Shown: piece after piece, positions 1,515-21,395 of the stretch
Numbering within the stretch: the first letter of the stretch is position 1
Layout of the letters: each line of letters starts with the position of its first letter
Assembly (NCBI GenBank): GCA_011364975.1
Contig: RDOE01000029.1
Coordinates: 1 to 38,117 of the forward strand
DNA: 38,117 nucleotides
Direction: 5' to 3'
DNA from: Promethearchaeota archaeon
GTDB taxonomy: Archaea > Asgardarchaeota > Lokiarchaeia > Sigyniarchaeales > SOKP01
The notes under the pieces: generated by a model
Database searches by the model: none
What the model was told of the DNA's origin: nothing
What the model saw: only the letters and a program-made list of their open reading frames with translations
Position numbers and translations under genes: made by a program

Positions 1515-1759
1515 ACTAACAACAATAAACAATACAATAATCATTTTTATTTTTATAGATCAGACCCTTGAACCAATTCCCTCATAATAGAAATAAAAAA
1601 TCGTCTCATTAATTGAAAAAATATGGCTCTTATTTGTTTTTCACTAAAATTCACACATTTTATTCAAAAATTATATTTAATCTAATTCTATTTTGATAAG
1701 TAAATTATTAAATACAAATTTCGATATTATATTTAAAAAAAAATGAATATTTACAACGG

Positions 1760-3247
1760 GTGAAAAAATTGGAGGAAAATGAAAAAACTTTAACACCCGA
1801 AGAGATTGAAAAACAAAAGAAAATCGTAGATCAATTATATAAACAAGAAAAAGAAGAGTTAGAAAAATACTTAAAAAGTACAGAGGAAGAACGCAAAAAA
1901 GCGTTTGAAGCAAGCCAAGAATTAATTTCCGATTTAATATCCCAGAAAAGTTTTTTTCGTGAAAAGCAGAGAGAACGTGATTTAGAACGAATAGAATTAA
2001 AACCAGAGATTGGAAAAGCAGGTACTGCAATTGAAAAGACTATTGAAACTCAAGCCTTTTATAGAGATAAACAGAGAGAGGAAGATTTTACGAGAATGGA
2101 TTTGAAGCCTGATATTAAGGGGGTAGCTGAGGTGATCAGTAAAACCATTGATGAAAAGGCGTTTCTCATTGAAAAGAAAAAGGAAAGCGCTATACAGAGA
2201 ATGAAACTAAAACCAGATATCGAAAAAAGTCGTGAAGCTATAAATCAATCAATTGGAGAAAAAGCTTTTATGATTGAAAAGAAGAGAGAATCTGATTCTC
2301 AAAGACATGAATTACATCCCGACATTGAGAAAGTAGCAGAAACTATTAGTAAATCTGTAGGAGAAAAAGCGTTTATGAGGGAAAAACAGAGAGAAGAAGA
2401 TTATAAAAGAATGGAATTAAGTCCTGATTTTCGAAAAACAGGTGAATCAATTAATAAAACTGTTGCCCAAAAAGCGTTTCTAATAGATCAAAAAAGAGAG
2501 ATGGACTCCAAAAGAAAAAGCTTACACCCGGAAAGAGAAGAAATTAGTGGGACTATTGAAAAAAATATTAGTGAAAAAGCATTTCTAATAGATTTACAAA
2601 GAGAAAAGACTCAAGAGATAAAGACATTACAACCAAATATAAAAGAAGCAAGTGAAGCTATTTCAAAATCAATTAGTGAGAAAGCTTTTTATCGAGAAAA
2701 ATACAGAGAAGAAGATGCTAAAAGAATGGAATTAAAGCCTGATTTTTATAAAGCAAGCGAAGCAATCAATAAAACCATAGCAGAAAAAGCATTTATTAGA
2801 GATTTACACCGAGAAACCGACCAAAAAATGAAAGAAATAAAGCCTGATTTTGAAAAAACCACTGAAGCTATAACTAAAGTGATTGATGAGAAAGCCTTTA
2901 TGATTGAAAAAAAGAGAGAATCTGAATCTCAGAGACATGATCTACATCCTGATATCGAGAAAGCAAGTCAAACTATTAATAAATCGCTAGGAGAAAAAGC
3001 TTTTATAAGAGAAAAGCAACGAGAACAAGATTTTCAAAGGATGGAGTTAAAACCTAACCTTGAAAAGGTTGCTGGGAGAATAGAGAAAACTATAGAAGAA
3101 AAAGCATTTTTCCGGGATAAACAACGAGAAAAAGATCAAGAAAGAATGGTTCTTAAACCTGATATTGAAGGAATCGGCTCAAAAATTGAATCTGAAATTG
3201 AAAAAATTGAAAGTAAAAAGCGAAAAGAAGAAAAAAATTCCAATTAG
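1760..3247 (+). CDS. Highly charged protein built of 35-aa tandem repeats, function unknown (nebulin-like pattern)
   Basis: 495-aa ORF with 11 complete and 2 partial units, consensus approximately LKPDIEKASEAINKSISEKAFxREKQRExDxxRME. Start may be TTG at 1769, after GGTGA at 1759-1763. Confidence 0.9.
   Translation: MKKLEENEKTLTPEEIEKQKKIVDQLYKQEKEELEKYLKSTEEERKKAFEASQELISDLISQKSFFREKQRERDLERIELKPEIGKAGTAIEKTIETQAFYRDKQREEDFTRMDLKPDIKGVAEVISKTIDEKAFLIEKKKESAIQRMKLKPDIEKSREAINQSIGEKAFMIEKKRESDSQRHELHPDIEKVAETISKSVGEKAFMREKQREEDYKRMELSPDFRKTGESINKTVAQKAFLIDQKREMDSKRKSLHPEREEISGTIEKNISEKAFLIDLQREKTQEIKTLQPNIKEASEAISKSISEKAFYREKYREEDAKRMELKPDFYKASEAINKTIAEKAFIRDLHRETDQKMKEIKPDFEKTTEAITKVIDEKAFMIEKKRESESQRHDLHPDIEKASQTINKSLGEKAFIREKQREQDFQRMELKPNLEKVAGRIEKTIEEKAFFRDKQREKDQERMVLKPDIEGIGSKIESEIEKIESKKRKEEKNSN
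1997..3151 (+). repeat. Coding tandem repeat, 11 x 105 nt, degenerate
   Basis: The L-x-P unit starts at 1997 and recurs every 105 nt to 3152 with no indels. Segments starting at 2264 and 2894 (offset 630 nt) are closely similar at DNA level. Confidence 0.95.
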
Positions 3248-3271: not shown

Positions 3272-3775
3272 TCATTTATTTGCATTAAATCTTAATAAAG
3301 AGTCAAAATTCCTGTTTTCTAATTTTTTTTTGTATTGTAAAATGGAGGGATCTACAATCCCATTGAAATTGGTTATTGCATGTTCAAATTTTTGATAGAA
3401 ATCCTCCATAACATCATGTAAAATTACGCGTTCTGCTGCGAGGTTAGTTTTTTTGGAAATCGCAATCACTGATAATCTTCCCTTTCGTTCATATAGGATT
3501 CTTGTTTCTTTGAAATTAATCTCTTGTATTTCATCTTCCTTTGATTCCAATTTCAATTCATTTATAAATAAGTTTAAAGCGTTCAAAAATCCGCATATTA
3601 GATCCTCATTCGAGAAAAGTGTTATATTTGTGGTATACTTATTACAAAGAAGTAAAGAACCAGTAAGATTATCAAGAAAATAAATTGCATGAAAGCGTTG
3701 CTCGTTGGAATTTAAATTTTCGATATTGAACCCGTATAATTTCTTCGGATTGGGATTATACCAATTGTATGTCAT
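3272..3775 (-). CDS. Longin-like domain protein (Asgard type)
   Basis: Pattern AIYFLDNLTGSLLL, DLICGFLNALNLFINEL, IQEINFKETRILYERKGRLSVIAIS and a C-terminal helix fits the longin beta-beta-alpha-beta-beta-beta-alpha layout. Confidence 0.6.
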   Translation of the reverse strand: MTYNWYNPNPKKLYGFNIENLNSNEQRFHAIYFLDNLTGSLLLCNKYTTNITLFSNEDLICGFLNALNLFINELKLESKEDEIQEINFKETRILYERKGRLSVIAISKKTNLAAERVILHDVMEDFYQKFEHAITNFNGIVDPSILQYKKKLENRNFDSLLRFNANK

Positions 3776-4031: not shown

Positions 4032-4505
4032 ATGGTTATGGTTGTAAATAACAACGATGTTAGGCAAAAAAATAAAATTTCTGTTGGTTTAATTATAACT
4101 GAAGATGACTTAAATTCAACATTTTTCCCCGAGGAAGTTAAAAAGGAAATCAGAAATTCTTCCTTCTATTTATTAATTTTCATTTCAAGGGAAGATTCAA
4201 TAAAAATCAGCTGTTTTCCAACTAATACCAGCAATATTAAGAAGATTCTAATTAAACTAATAGAATTTTCTCCCGAATTAGTAAAAGGCATATCTACTGT
4301 ATTGAATGAACTCAATTTAAGTAAGGAAATTTTGCATACAACAGGTATCTGTTATGAATTAGAGAATTGTTTCTATGAAACTTATTTAATAGGGGATGTC
4401 CTTAATAATGGACGAGTATCATTAGAAAGTGTAAAGCAAAAGTTTATGGCAATTCCTCAAGTAGTCAATGTAAATATAGAAGAGATTTCAATCAACGCTA
4501 AATAA
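4032..4505 (+). CDS. Hypothetical protein, possible C-terminal ACT-like domain
   Basis: 157-aa ORF with normal composition; HTTGIC...CFYE motif. Confidence 0.65.
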   Translation: MVMVVNNNDVRQKNKISVGLIITEDDLNSTFFPEEVKKEIRNSSFYLLIFISREDSIKISCFPTNTSNIKKILIKLIEFSPELVKGISTVLNELNLSKEILHTTGICYELENCFYETYLIGDVLNNGRVSLESVKQKFMAIPQVVNVNIEEISINAK

Positions 4506-4628: not shown

Positions 4629-5027
4629 TTATTGAGTTTTAATGGCGCTTAATGTACGCCAGGTTTTCCAGAAAATTAACCATAAGATTATAAAAATAAA
4701 AATAGTCGTGAAAAAAGTATATCCCCCAATAAAACCATCAATCATGAGTGAAAAGGGTATCCCTGCGATACAAAAACCTATCAGATAACCATATCCCCAA
4801 TATCTATTTTTTATAGCGATTATTACTCCAGGAATCATAGTTGTCAATATAATTGATAAAAAGGCTAAAATTTCATATTCGGGAGATGCATTGAAAATTA
4901 AGATCATATTCACCCAAGATATCACAAAACCTATCGCAGCAAAAAGGAAGGTAAAAATATCAATTTTAAACTCTGGTTCAGGTCGACCAACAGTTTGTTC
5001 ATTCTTTTTCTTAGTCATGCTTTTCAA
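4629..5027 (-). CDS. Small integral membrane protein (about 4 TM)
   Basis: Four hydrophobic segments; ATG alternative a few codons after the TTG start. Confidence 0.75.
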   Translation of the reverse strand: MKSMTKKKNEQTVGRPEPEFKIDIFTFLFAAIGFVISWVNMILIFNASPEYEILAFLSIILTTMIPGVIIAIKNRYWGYGYLIGFCIAGIPFSLMIDGFIGGYTFFTTIFIFIILWLIFWKTWRTLSAIKTQ

Positions 5028-9688: not shown

Positions 9689-10249
9689 TTGCCTGCTGAA
9701 GATTTATTAACTGAGAAGGAATATGTATTTAAAATAACGATATTAGGCGAAAGTGCCGTAGGTAAAACCTCATTAATTAATCAATTTGTAGAAGGATCAT
9801 TTCAAGAAGATTATAAACCGACTTTGGGGGCAAACATAGTTCGGAAAGATGTAAATATTGAAAAGGTTAACGCTAAGGTACGTTTAATAATGTGGGATCT
9901 TGCTGGCCAAGAAAAGTATAATGTTATTCGTAGCATGTATTTTCAAGGATGTGTTGGAAGTTTGTTCGTCTATGATATAACACGACATCAAACATTTGAT
10001 AATATCGAATCCAAATGGCTTAGAGATTTTAAAAATTATGTGAAAAAGGAAGGAGAATACGTATTAATTGGGAATAAGATAGATCTAGATGATGAACGGG
10101 TGGTTAAAGCAGAAGAGGGTAAAAAGTTGGCAGAAAAAATAAAGGCTAGTGCTTTTATTGAAACGAGTGCTAAACTAGGAGAAAATGTCGAACATGCATT
10201 TAAAAATTTAGTTTACAAAATTTTAAGAAATTACGGAGAAAACATCTAA
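9689..10249 (+). CDS. Rab-like small GTPase
   Basis: G1 GESAVGKT, G2 PTLG, G3 WDLAGQ, G4 NKID, G5 SAK; no C-terminal Cys. Confidence 0.95.
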   Translation: MPAEDLLTEKEYVFKITILGESAVGKTSLINQFVEGSFQEDYKPTLGANIVRKDVNIEKVNAKVRLIMWDLAGQEKYNVIRSMYFQGCVGSLFVYDITRHQTFDNIESKWLRDFKNYVKKEGEYVLIGNKIDLDDERVVKAEEGKKLAEKIKASAFIETSAKLGENVEHAFKNLVYKILRNYGENI

Positions 10250-20864: not shown

Positions 20865-21395
20865 ATGGATGTAGAACCAAGTTATATTATTAAAATTTGC
20901 TTATTAGGAGAGGCAAATGTAGGTAAAACCTCGTTAGTTTATCGTTTTATAGAAAATAAATTTCGAGAAAACTATAAAAGTACATTAGGAGTTAATTTGT
21001 TGAAAAAGGATCTTACATTTCAAGAATATGGTGATGTGTCTGCTCAAATCTGGGATTTAGGAGGGCAAGAAAGCTTTAGAAATTTAAGAAAACTATATCT
21101 TGAAGGTGCTAATGGGGCTCTATTAGTATATGATTGTACCCAGACAAAAACGTTTGAAAAACTACAAGATTGGATTCAAGATTTTAGAAATGCAAGAGGA
21201 AATGAACCAGTATTATTAATAGGCAATAAAGTTGATTTAGATAATAATATCAAAGTTTCAGAAAGTGAAGCAAAAGAGTTTGCTAAAAATTATAGCTTAA
21301 AGTTCATAGAAACTTCCGCAAAAACAGGCTCTAATGTAGAAGAGGCATTCATTGGAATTATAAAGTCAATTCTAAAAAAAACTTTGGAAGAGTAA
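20865..21395 (+). CDS. Rab-like small GTPase
   Basis: GEANVGKT, STLG, WDLGGQ, NKVD, SAK; no C-terminal Cys. Confidence 0.95.
   Translation: MDVEPSYIIKICLLGEANVGKTSLVYRFIENKFRENYKSTLGVNLLKKDLTFQEYGDVSAQIWDLGGQESFRNLRKLYLEGANGALLVYDCTQTKTFEKLQDWIQDFRNARGNEPVLLIGNKVDLDNNIKVSESEAKEFAKNYSLKFIETSAKTGSNVEEAFIGIIKSILKKTLEE

What the first reader, a model, noticed from the sequence alone, without database searches (positions are those of the whole stretch)
1760..3247. Nebulin-like 35-aa repeat protein: candidate Asgard actin-filament binder or ruler
Seen: 11 complete and 2 partial repeats of exactly 35 aa with no indels. Each unit has one invariant Pro, an amphipathic segment and a conserved x-(E/Q)-K-A-F core (SEKAF in several units); there is no TM segment or catalytic domain. 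Established: nebulin/nebulette/LASP modules are about 35 aa, have a Pro about 13 residues before an SDxxYK motif and bind one actin subunit each; Asgard archaea encode filament-forming actins. Inference: the spacing here (P, then SExxF 14 residues later) and strict unit length suggest an extended protein registering along a polymer, possibly an actin stabiliser or length ruler, by homology or convergence.
Basis: partly seen in the sequence, partly recalled or inferred. Interest (0 to 1): 0.88.

Follow-up and report, generated by a model that had tools for sequence, protein, structure and literature searches.

The report
Orphan 35-residue helical repeat protein of Lokiarchaeia
A real, conserved Asgard-archaeal gene encodes a string of twelve 35-residue single helices joined by proline hinges; it has no detectable relationship to nebulin or any known family, and what it binds, actin or anything else, is still unknown.

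Summary
Window 1760..3247 (+) is a 495-aa ORF with 12 prolines exactly 35 residues apart and an x-E-K-A-F core. Self-identity at lag 35 is 0.478 against 0.085 for shuffles (z 28.6).

The gene is real. With a profile it is found in 109 of 134 genomes of its own Lokiarchaeia family, in 3 of 18 genomes of two sister families, and in 0 of 247 other Asgard genomes. The 35-residue pitch is kept (492 of 588 spacings), and length changes only by whole units.

Two AlphaFold2 runs give one ~31-residue helix per unit, broken at K-P-D, with no tertiary fold (pTM 0.18 and 0.19).

Homology to nebulin is not supported. Pfam Nebulin does not match even at E<=10, PDB sequence and profile searches find nothing, the motif differs, and there is no 7-unit super-repeat.

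Nothing links the gene to actin. Its neighbours are unrelated, and the family is narrow while Lokiactin is found across the phylum.

Best reading: a lineage-specific, extended, multivalent helical scaffold with an unknown partner. I put actin binding at about 8%.

The parts
1695..1742 (+). Conserved upstream block ending in a TATA-like A/T box (1726-1742), 18-65 nt before the GTG. Putative archaeal promoter plus a possible regulator site. Its position implies a leaderless or very short-leader mRNA.
   Evidence: the block is nearly identical in 13 of 17 ortholog upstreams printed, including two whose proteins are only about 45% identical (L042, L051). It is partly kept in 2 (L016, L039) and absent in L055. 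The 25 nt next to the start codon vary. Its function is inferred and no transcript data exist.
1760..3247 (+). Whole gene: 495-aa repeat protein, 58.7 kDa, pI 8.1, with a GTG start.
   Evidence: The GTG start and the following motif are conserved in 19 of 20 ortholog loci.
1760..1942 (+). N-terminal head (residues 1-61). It is part of one long helix predicted for residues 13-80, and is the region best kept in distant homologues.
   Evidence: pLDDT is 79-89 over residues 11-60. The head is recognisable in the f2 and f4 homologues and in P0001, P0004 and P0035.
1943..3202 (+). Twelve 35-residue units (residues 62-481). Each has an E-K-A-F core, a charged stretch with an i/i+3 salt-bridge pattern, a K-P-D hinge and an I/A-I/I ridge.
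   Evidence: (207 units: K2 99%, F4 98%, P21 97%, I30 100%).
3203..3247 (+). Short lysine-rich C-terminal tail (residues 482-495) and the stop codon.
   Evidence: I480, I483, E484, K486 and K487 are invariant in 19 sequences.

Best explanation
**What it is (shown).** This is a genuine, vertically inherited, cytoplasmic protein. It founds an unannotated family confined essentially to one family of Lokiarchaeia.

**Predicted shape.** It is not globular. A conserved head helix of about 68 residues is followed by twelve rigid helices of about 31 residues, joined by K-P-D hinges. Each helix has two halves:
- The first half carries a narrow conserved hydrophobic ridge (I23, A29-I30, I34, A3-F4, I6 in unit numbering).
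- The second half is a ladder of alternating charges at i/i+3 (E7-R10-D13-R16), which would keep the helix stiff on its own.

**How it most likely works (inferred).** The protein is an extended multivalent scaffold. It presents the same small binding ridge twelve times at a fixed pitch of roughly 5-6 nm and lies along a repetitive partner: a protein polymer or lattice, or less likely a membrane surface. The head would provide anchoring or pairing.

It works like nebulin only in this general sense and is not a nebulin homologue. The partner is unknown.
For: **Gene reality and conservation**
- Found in 33 of 36 genomes of the genus with the single protein.
- Found in 109 of 134 genomes of the family with a profile.
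- The open frame, GTG start and an upstream promoter-like block are conserved.

**Strict pitch**
- 492 of 588 successive unit spacings are exactly 35. Most of the rest are 34/36 pairs.
- Lengths fall in steps of one unit: 493-495, 455-459, 418-423 and 388-401 aa.

**Position-specific conservation.** Same-index units of orthologs are 55.8% identical, against 46.9% for different-index units.

**Shape**
- Two AlphaFold2 runs, with 19 and 39 sequences, give one helix per unit broken at K-P-D.
- pTM is 0.18 and 0.19, with no helix-hairpin or solenoid packing called with confidence.
- Foldseek finds no PDB match at E<=10.
- VIA-align gives only generic long-helix matches, with Z<=7.6.

**Conserved ridge and charges**
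- Column statistics come from 207 units and the helical wheel.
- Opposite charges at i+3 number 65, against 5 like charges (z 6.5 against shuffles).
Against: - No partner is identified by any search.
- Gene neighbours (DUF362 and two unannotated small ORFs) give no clue. They are not kept beside the distant homologues.
- A distant homologue (G042) has 37-residue units and no proline. The f4 homologues replace most units by a different helical repeat. The exact 35-residue pitch is therefore not essential to the wider family.
- The low pTM may reflect shallow alignments rather than true lack of fold.
- Self-association, which would bury the ridge, was not tested.
- No expression data were found.
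Confidence: 0.35

Rival explanations
1. Convergent nebulin analogue. Each 35-residue unit would lie along one subunit of an actin-type filament, either Lokiactin or the order's 371-aa actin paralogue. The 12-unit protein would stabilise or measure about 60-70 nm of filament.
For: - The unit length matches nebulin's modal 35 residues. A Pro sits near the helix start, and an acidic-x-x-aromatic core lies 18 residues after the Pro. In nebulin the conserved Tyr22 lies 17 residues after the position (5) often occupied by Pro (passages of bioRxiv 10.1101/2021.10.06.463400).
- One long helix is predicted per unit with no tertiary fold.
- Geometry (my inference): 31 helical residues plus a 4-residue hinge span about 47-60 Å, which brackets the about 55 Å actin subunit repeat (a recalled value).
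- Relatives of this genome encode Lokiactin and an actin paralogue.
- The protein is mildly basic (pI 8.1) and the actins are acidic (pI 5.2 and 4.9).
Against: - There is no profile similarity to Nebulin at E<=10, and no PDB sequence or profile hit.
- The aromatic residue is Phe, not the conserved Tyr, and no Lys follows it.
- There is no 7-unit super-repeat.
- The family is found in one archaeal family only, while Lokiactin-like genes were found in 116 of 121 Asgard genomes.
- With these queries it was not found in the closed genomes G050 and G055 of the sister family, which do have both actins.
- No actin, profilin or gelsolin gene lies beside it.
- A distant homologue has 37-residue units without Pro.
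- A 2026 paper names only profilins and gelsolins as Asgard actin regulators (passage of PMC13716822).
Confidence: 0.08
2. Self-associating structural protein. The helices would pair, in parallel or antiparallel, into a segmented coiled-coil dimer or higher assembly, like bacterial coiled-coil-rich proteins. The hydrophobic ridge would be the self-interface.
For: - 35 residues equal five heptads, so the ridge keeps one heptad phase in every unit. Hydrophobicity has power at period 3.5.
- The head is a confident 68-residue helix. Its only structural look-alikes are coiled-coil segments, with Z about 7 and rmsd 0.7-4 Å. These matches are generic.
- The ridge is narrow and one residue wide.
Against: - A proline falls every 35 residues.
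- Half of each unit has polar or charged residues (R10, D13) at the would-be core positions.
- Period-5.0 and period-3.9 terms are stronger than period 3.5.
- No oligomer prediction could be run.
Confidence: 0.2
3. Passive stiff spacer or tether. The conserved head would carry the specific function. The repeats would serve only as a single-alpha-helix-like rod that sets a distance.
For: - The head is the part best kept in distant homologues, whose repeat regions differ in period or kind.
- i/i+3 salt-bridge pairs are strongly enriched (z 6.5).
- The content of E, K and R is high.
- A myosin-7a SAH helix is among the generic structural matches.
Against: - Within the family, non-charged positions are almost invariant (F4 98%, I30 100%, A3 83%, P21 97% of 207 units). 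A mere spacer would not need this.
- The i/i+4 pairs typical of ER/K helices are not enriched (z -1.6).
Confidence: 0.15
4. Surface-active amphipathic-helix protein, like apolipoproteins, perilipins or LEA proteins. It would coat membranes or lipid, or protect against stress.
For: - Proline-punctuated tandem helices with no tertiary fold resemble exchangeable apolipoproteins (recalled).
- The first half of each helix is amphipathic, with a mean hydrophobic moment of 0.36-0.39.
Against: - No Pfam match to apolipoprotein, perilipin or LEA families at E<=10.
- The period is 35, not 11 or 22.
- The hydrophobic face is only one residue wide and mean hydrophobicity is about 0. On my recalled Eisenberg criterion this is below the surface-seeking zone.
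Confidence: 0.12
5. Not a functional gene: a chance ORF or an assembly artefact of a repeat.
For: None beyond the absence of RNA data.
Against: - The intact frame is conserved in over 100 genomes at 40-65% identity, with unit-wise indels only.
- DNA-level unit identity is only 60%.
- The promoter-like block is conserved.
- The antisense ORF at 1677-2030 has no counterpart in 43 loci.
Confidence: 0.01

Closest known systems
Nebulin simple repeat (Pfam PF00880; nebulin, nebulette, LASP, N-RAP)
   Same: - Tandem modules of about 35 residues.
- A proline near the start of the helix.
- An acidic-x-x-aromatic core 17-18 residues later.
- One long helix predicted per module, in a non-globular chain (nebulin facts from passages of bioRxiv 10.1101/2021.10.06.463400).
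   Different: - No profile or sequence similarity.
- Phe replaces the conserved Tyr, and the S-D-x-x-Y-K motif is not met.
- No 7-module super-repeat.
- 12 modules, against well over a hundred in nebulin.
- pI is 8.1.
- No SH3 or LIM domain.
- Archaeal and family-restricted.
- Binding to actin is untested.
Exchangeable apolipoproteins (ApoA-I, A-IV, E type; recalled from general knowledge)
   Same: Tandem helices punctuated by prolines, with no stable tertiary fold alone and high charge.
   Different: - The period is 35, not 11 or 22.
- No Pfam match at E<=10.
- The hydrophobic ridge is narrow and the hydrophobic moment modest.
ER/K single alpha-helix (SAH) domains, e.g. the myosin-7a SAH (chain 5wst_B)
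   Same: Rich in E, K and R. Isolated helices are predicted, and opposite-charge pairs are enriched.
   Different: - Pairs are at i+3, not i+4.
- Hydrophobic positions are invariant, and Pro hinges recur every 35 residues.
GvpC of gas vesicles (33-residue helical repeats lying across GvpA ribs; recalled)
   Same: The concept: a short array of fixed-length helical repeats that reinforces a periodic protein lattice.
   Different: No sequence match. No GvpA gene was found in the own genome, though the control search rang nowhere, so this is uninformative.
Tropomyosin and axonemal ruler coiled coils (generic matches)
   Same: Long segmented helices that lie along filaments.
   Different: Those are continuous two-stranded coiled coils without prolines. 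The matches here (Z<=7.6, some with rmsd over 90 Å) are at the level expected for any long helix.

Membership tests
Nebulin repeat (PF00880) | Significant match to the family profile | tested here: not met
   Not listed for the whole protein at E<=10, nor for any of 11 two-unit pieces. A six-frame search of the own genome gives 2 sub-threshold hits on other contigs and none at this locus.
Nebulin repeat (PF00880) | S-D-x-x-Y-K motif with a conserved Tyr | tested here: not met
   The core is x-E-K-A-F. In 207 units F is 98% and Y 1%, and S at the first place is 12%. The next residue is L, R or M, not K.
Nebulin repeat (PF00880) | Tandem modules of 31-38 (mostly 35) residues, with Pro near the helix start | tested here: met
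   Exactly 35 residues with Pro in 97% of units. The helix starts after the Pro in both models.
Nebulin repeat (PF00880) | Seven-module super-repeats (nebulin proper) | tested here: not met
   The unit-by-unit identity matrix shows no lag-7 signal, only a weak lag-3 excess. With 12 units the test is weak.
Nebulin repeat (PF00880) | One module binds one actin subunit along the filament | not testable with these tools
   The single complex-prediction job was returned NOT FOLDED. No biochemical data exist.
PPR / TPR-type alpha-solenoid (34-35-residue units) | Two antiparallel helices per unit stacking into a superhelix, and a profile match | tested here: not met
   One helix per unit and pTM 0.18-0.19. 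No PPR or TPR family is listed at E<=10.
Exchangeable apolipoprotein / LEA / perilipin amphipathic repeats | 11- or 22-residue periodicity, a broad hydrophobic face and a profile match | tested here: not met
   The period is 35. The 11.67-residue harmonic is weaker than the 5.0, 3.9 and 3.5 terms. No such Pfam family is listed at E<=10.
ER/K single alpha-helix | Dense i/i+4 opposite-charge pairs and no conserved hydrophobic positions | tested here: inconclusive
   i+3 pairs are enriched (z 6.5) and i+4 pairs are not (z -1.6). Conserved F, I and A positions are present.
Two-stranded coiled coil (tropomyosin-like) | Continuous heptad a/d hydrophobic core and no helix breakers | tested here: inconclusive
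   35 = 5 x 7 and there is a period-3.5 signal. However, Pro falls every 35 residues and half of each unit has polar core positions. No oligomer prediction was run.

The most novel reading that the evidence does not exclude
One Lokiarchaeia family may have invented, independently of animals, a nebulin-like side-binder of actin-type filaments. Each 35-residue helix plus hinge would span one ~5.5-nm subunit of Lokiactin or of the order-specific 371-aa actin paralogue. The 9-12-unit protein would then stabilise or measure filament stretches of about 50-70 nm. It would be the first filament 'ruler' known in archaea and a third class of Asgard actin regulator, beside profilins and gelsolins.
Probability: 0.08. 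Interest if true: 0.85.

Novelty: new variant of a known kind. Interest (0 to 1): 0.42.

Why it matters
[quoted passage not shown] This is a conserved, extended protein that displays one small binding ridge twelve times at a fixed pitch. Such a protein could organise a cellular polymer or lattice. Finding its partner would show either a new archaeal cytoskeletal accessory or a new use of single-helix repeats.

As it stands it is a well-defined orphan family with a clear, cheap experimental path: express it, measure its shape and test its binding. It is not a demonstrated actin regulator.

The strongly conserved upstream block also offers a handle on how it is regulated.

Tried and rejected
**Searches that found nothing useful**
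- The search for homologous proteins returned nothing at E<=0.001, both with the whole protein and with residues 1-100. Orthologs plainly exist, so the blanks say nothing about novelty. I have no tested explanation for them.
- phmmer against 1.84 billion representatives gave 44 hits at E<=0.001, mostly fragments. One of them (P0043) is an unrelated repeat protein.
- The ESM Atlas gave one unnamed cluster at score 0.79, which is below use.
- The listing of cluster members did not hold the three ortholog sequences as I delimited them.
- PHROGs gave one stray hit at E 0.005 and PADLOC gave none.

**Structure searches**
- Foldseek against the PDB gave 0 matches at E<=10.
- VIA-align against 48,161 chains gave a best Z of 7.6 with only long-helix and coiled-coil chains. 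That is the level the tool calls common for helical models. The absence of nebulin or any other family from that list is not evidence.

**Co-folding with actin**
- The job held Lokiactin x2, ADP x2 and four units, all from relative G019.
- The tool returned NOT FOLDED, under its rule on eukaryote-like chains.
- There is therefore no verdict of any kind on binding.

**Expression**
- The look-up of sequencing runs listed 20 DNA rows from 8 studies that hold the stretch, but no RNA holder.

**Phyletic link to actin**
- I first thought the 371-aa actin paralogue might share the repeat protein's distribution.
- The paralogue is also present in all 5 sister-family (f2) genomes searched for it, none of which showed the repeat protein, and in 2 genomes of genus g29, a genus with the repeat protein in 0 of 7.
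- It was not found in the f4 genomes that have weak repeat-protein homologues.
- I dropped the idea.

**Other leads dropped**
- Gas-vesicle idea: no GvpA was found, but the control rang nowhere, so this is uninformative.
- Neighbours as a clue: synteny is kept in 33-37 of 43 loci for the four nearest genes and in 29 of 43 for the radical-SAM gene. It is lost next to the f2 and f4 homologues, so it reflects kinship only.
- No supplementary files of papers were consulted.
Full report
**1. The observation**

The ORF is exactly as stated: window 1760..3247 on the + strand, GTG start, 495 aa.

Prolines lie at residues 82, 117 ... 467, giving eleven spacings that are all exactly 35. The A-F dipeptide recurs in the same register from residue 99 to 449, with K-S-F at 63-65. 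Phased from the E-K-A-F core it gives 12 full units (residues 62-481).

Self-identity at lag 35 is 0.478, against 0.085 +/- 0.014 in 2000 shuffles (z 28.6).

Units are 34-80% identical to each other, typically 45-50%. At DNA level they are 60% identical, and 48% at third codon positions. Tandem Repeats Finder reports no 105-nt array. The array is therefore ancient and held by selection on the protein. It is not a recent expansion or an assembly artefact.

The literal S-E-K-A-F occurs in only 2 of the 12 units. In 207 units from the window protein and 18 orthologs, the best-kept positions are K2 (99%), F4 (98%), P21 (97%), I30 (100%), A3 (83%), R/K10 (99%), E11 (86%), K20 (80%) and D22 (77%).

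**2. Is it a gene, and whose?**

A six-frame search finds one copy in the window's own genome. Orthologs of 54-65% identity over the aligned stretch occur in 33 of 36 other genomes of the genus.

With a profile of 19 orthologs the tallies are:
- own family f1: 109 of 134 genomes;
- f2: 1 of 14;
- f4: 2 of 4;
- the remaining 247 genomes of the phylum sample: 0.

In the named collection 43 loci were confirmed. By title:
- 33 are Promethearchaeota or Promethearchaeia;
- 7 carry other Asgard labels (1 Odin-, 2 Hermod-, 1 Thor-, 3 Hodarchaeota);
- 2 are 'uncultured archaeon';
- 1 is 'Nanopelagicaceae bacterium', which has the same Asgard neighbours and is probably mislabelled.

The window also encodes two Ras-family GTPases, CDC48, KTI12 and TBP. 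The Asgard (Lokiarchaeia) assignment therefore stands.

The GTG start and the residues after it are conserved in 19 of 20 loci.

An upstream block (window 1695-1742) ends in a TATA-like A/T run 18-34 nt before the GTG. It is almost unchanged in 13 of 17 ortholog upstreams examined, including two whose proteins are only about 45% identical. The last 25 nt before the start codon vary. This looks like a conserved promoter, perhaps with a regulator site, driving a leaderless or short-leader monocistronic mRNA. That reading is inferred, because no RNA data could be found.

**3. How the repeat behaves in evolution**

The 19-sequence alignment has no indels except whole 35-residue units.

A unit HMM run over 63 loci gave 588 successive spacings. 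Of these, 492 are exactly 35, and most of the others are compensating 34/36 pairs.

Complete proteins fall into length classes one unit apart:
- 493-495 aa (12 units);
- 455-459 aa;
- 418-423 aa;
- 388-401 aa.

Same-index units of orthologs are more alike (55.8%) than different-index units (46.9%). However, the best match is the same index in only 62 of 180 cases. There is no 7-unit super-repeat, only a faint lag-3 excess.

Outside the family the picture loosens:
- The f2 homologue (G042) keeps the head and the A-I-x-K-x-[IV]-G-x-x-A-F core, but has 37-residue units without proline.
- The f4 homologues keep the head and two E-K-A-F units, then switch to another helical repeat of about 36-37 residues.

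The head, not the exact pitch, is the most widely conserved part.

**4. Structure**

Two AlphaFold2 runs used 19 and 39 sequences. They gave mean pLDDT of 62.9 and 65.3 and pTM of 0.18 and 0.19. Both agree on three points:
- a long helix over residues 13-80, with pLDDT about 80-89;
- one helix of about 31 residues per unit, broken for 2-6 residues at each K-P-D;
- no confident tertiary arrangement.

Foldseek finds nothing in the PDB at E<=10. VIA-align gives only generic long-helix matches with Z<=7.6.

On a helical wheel the first half of each helix carries a one-residue-wide hydrophobic ridge of I23, I30, I34, A3 and I6. F4 and L19 lie on other faces. The mean hydrophobic moment is 0.36-0.39 at a mean hydrophobicity of about 0.

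The second half is charged. Opposite charges at i+3 outnumber like charges 65 to 5 (z 6.5), while i+4 pairs are not enriched. This fits a self-stabilised stiff helix.

No such model was obtained, but shallow alignments limit what that means.

**5. Comparison with nebulin and other families**

The sequence-level searches found nothing significant:
- Pfam at E<=10 lists no Nebulin, PPR, TPR, LEA or apolipoprotein family, for the whole protein or for 11 overlapping two-unit pieces.
- The Nebulin profile, run over the six-frame translation of the whole genome, gives two sub-threshold hits on other contigs and none at this locus.
- phmmer and a two-unit profile against all PDB sequences return nothing at E<=10.
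- NCBIfam, PHROGs and PADLOC give nothing meaningful.

From passages of the thin-filament cryo-ET preprint (bioRxiv 10.1101/2021.10.06.463400), nebulin has these features:
- simple repeats of 31-38 residues, mostly 35;
- a proline often at position 5, where helix H1 starts;
- S-D-x-x-Y-K at positions 18-23, with a fully conserved Tyr22;
- a kink between two helices, followed by a loop;
- 7-repeat super-repeats;
- contacts with three adjacent actin subunits.

Here the aromatic residue lies 18 residues after the proline, against 17 in nebulin, and is preceded by acidic-x-x. But the aromatic is Phe, the Ser is rare, the following Lys is absent, no kink or loop is predicted, and no profile signal exists.

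The resemblance is best described as possible convergence of architecture, not homology.

**6. Any link to actin?**

*The actins.* The own assembly holds three actin-family genes. The best is a 371-aa type interrupted by one in-frame TAG. Relatives have an intact copy of that type. They also have canonical Lokiactin, which is 90.6% identical to that of a closed 6.0-Mb genome of the sister family. Lokiactin is only 43-47% identical to the 371-aa type. Canonical Lokiactin was not found in the own assembly, which has 200 contigs.

*Distribution.*
- Lokiactin-like genes were found in 116 of 121 Asgard genomes.
- The paralogue occurs in f1 and f2 but was not found in the f3 and f4 genomes searched.
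- Neither distribution tracks the repeat protein.

*Gene context.*
- The flanking genes are a DUF362 protein, two small ORFs without any Pfam hit, a small membrane protein and a radical-SAM enzyme.
- This synteny is kept in 29-37 of 43 related loci.
- It is not kept beside the f2 and f4 homologues.

*Literature.* Four papers hold both 'Asgard' and 'nebulin', and none is on this subject by title or abstract start. A 2026 Nature paper names profilins and gelsolins as the main Asgard actin regulators (passage). A 2026 preprint on Asgard repeat proteins does not mention nebulin (0 occurrences).

It gives no verdict.

**7. Verdict**

Shown:
- The gene is real, conserved and lineage-specific.
- It encodes an orphan, all-helical, non-globular protein with a strictly kept 35-residue unit.
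- It is not a detectable relative of nebulin or of any curated family.

Inferred, with confidence 0.35: it acts as an extended multivalent scaffold. It would display a small conserved ridge at about 5-6 nm intervals along a repetitive partner, with the conserved head as anchor or pairing element.

Rivals:
- self-assembling segmented coiled coil: 0.20;
- passive stiff spacer: 0.15;
- surface-active amphipathic protein: 0.12;
- actin side-binder or ruler by convergence: 0.08;
- artefact: 0.01.

Interest is moderate. The architecture is striking and the organism matters, but at present nothing ties the protein to the cytoskeleton.

Noticed in passing
window 1695-1742: A 48-nt upstream block ending in a TATA-like run is conserved almost base for base in 13 of 17 ortholog upstreams. 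That is better than the coding sequence, whose protein identity falls to about 45%. It may be a promoter plus a regulator site.
   Followed up: partly
own genome G000:C142:30078-31187 (-), locus L066/L091: The best actin-family gene of the window's genome carries one in-frame TAG where relatives have Phe or Tyr. This is either an assembly error or a pseudogene. Canonical Lokiactin was not found in this 200-contig assembly.
   Followed up: partly
L069:1375-2487 (-) and relatives; L116:356-1498 (+): Families f1 and f2 of this order carry a second actin of about 371 aa, only 43-47% identical to canonical Lokiactin. It is 61-100% conserved within f1 and 48-58% identical in f2. It was not found in the f3 and f4 genomes searched.
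   Followed up: partly
L031 (contig DATKTW010000179.1): A contig labelled 'Candidatus Nanopelagicaceae bacterium' holds a 57%-identical ortholog together with the same Asgard neighbour genes. It is probably a mislabelled or misbinned MAG.
   Followed up: no
window 3272-3775 (-), 4032-4505 (+), 4629-5027 (-): Three small ORFs of 167, 157 and 132 aa have no Pfam hit even at E<=10, yet are conserved next to the repeat gene in 33-36 of 43 loci. By eye the 167-aa one has a longin- or roadblock-like pattern of strands and helices, but this was not tested.
   Followed up: no
window 9689-10249 (+) and 20865-21395 (+): Two Ras-family small GTPases (Pfam Ras, E 2e-51 and 8e-51), typical Asgard signature proteins. 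The first follows a conserved 195-aa ORF without a family.
   Followed up: no
L121 (G042:C17), L122 and L123 (G041, G039): Distant homologues keep the N-terminal head but change the array. One has 37-residue units without proline. The others have two E-K-A-F units followed by a different helical repeat of about 36-37 residues. P0001 and P0004 add a C-terminal K-W-L-[DE]-Q-L-K motif.
   Followed up: partly
window 1677-2030 (-): A 117-aa antisense ORF overlaps the start of the repeat gene. It has no counterpart in 43 related loci and is taken as spurious.
   Followed up: yes
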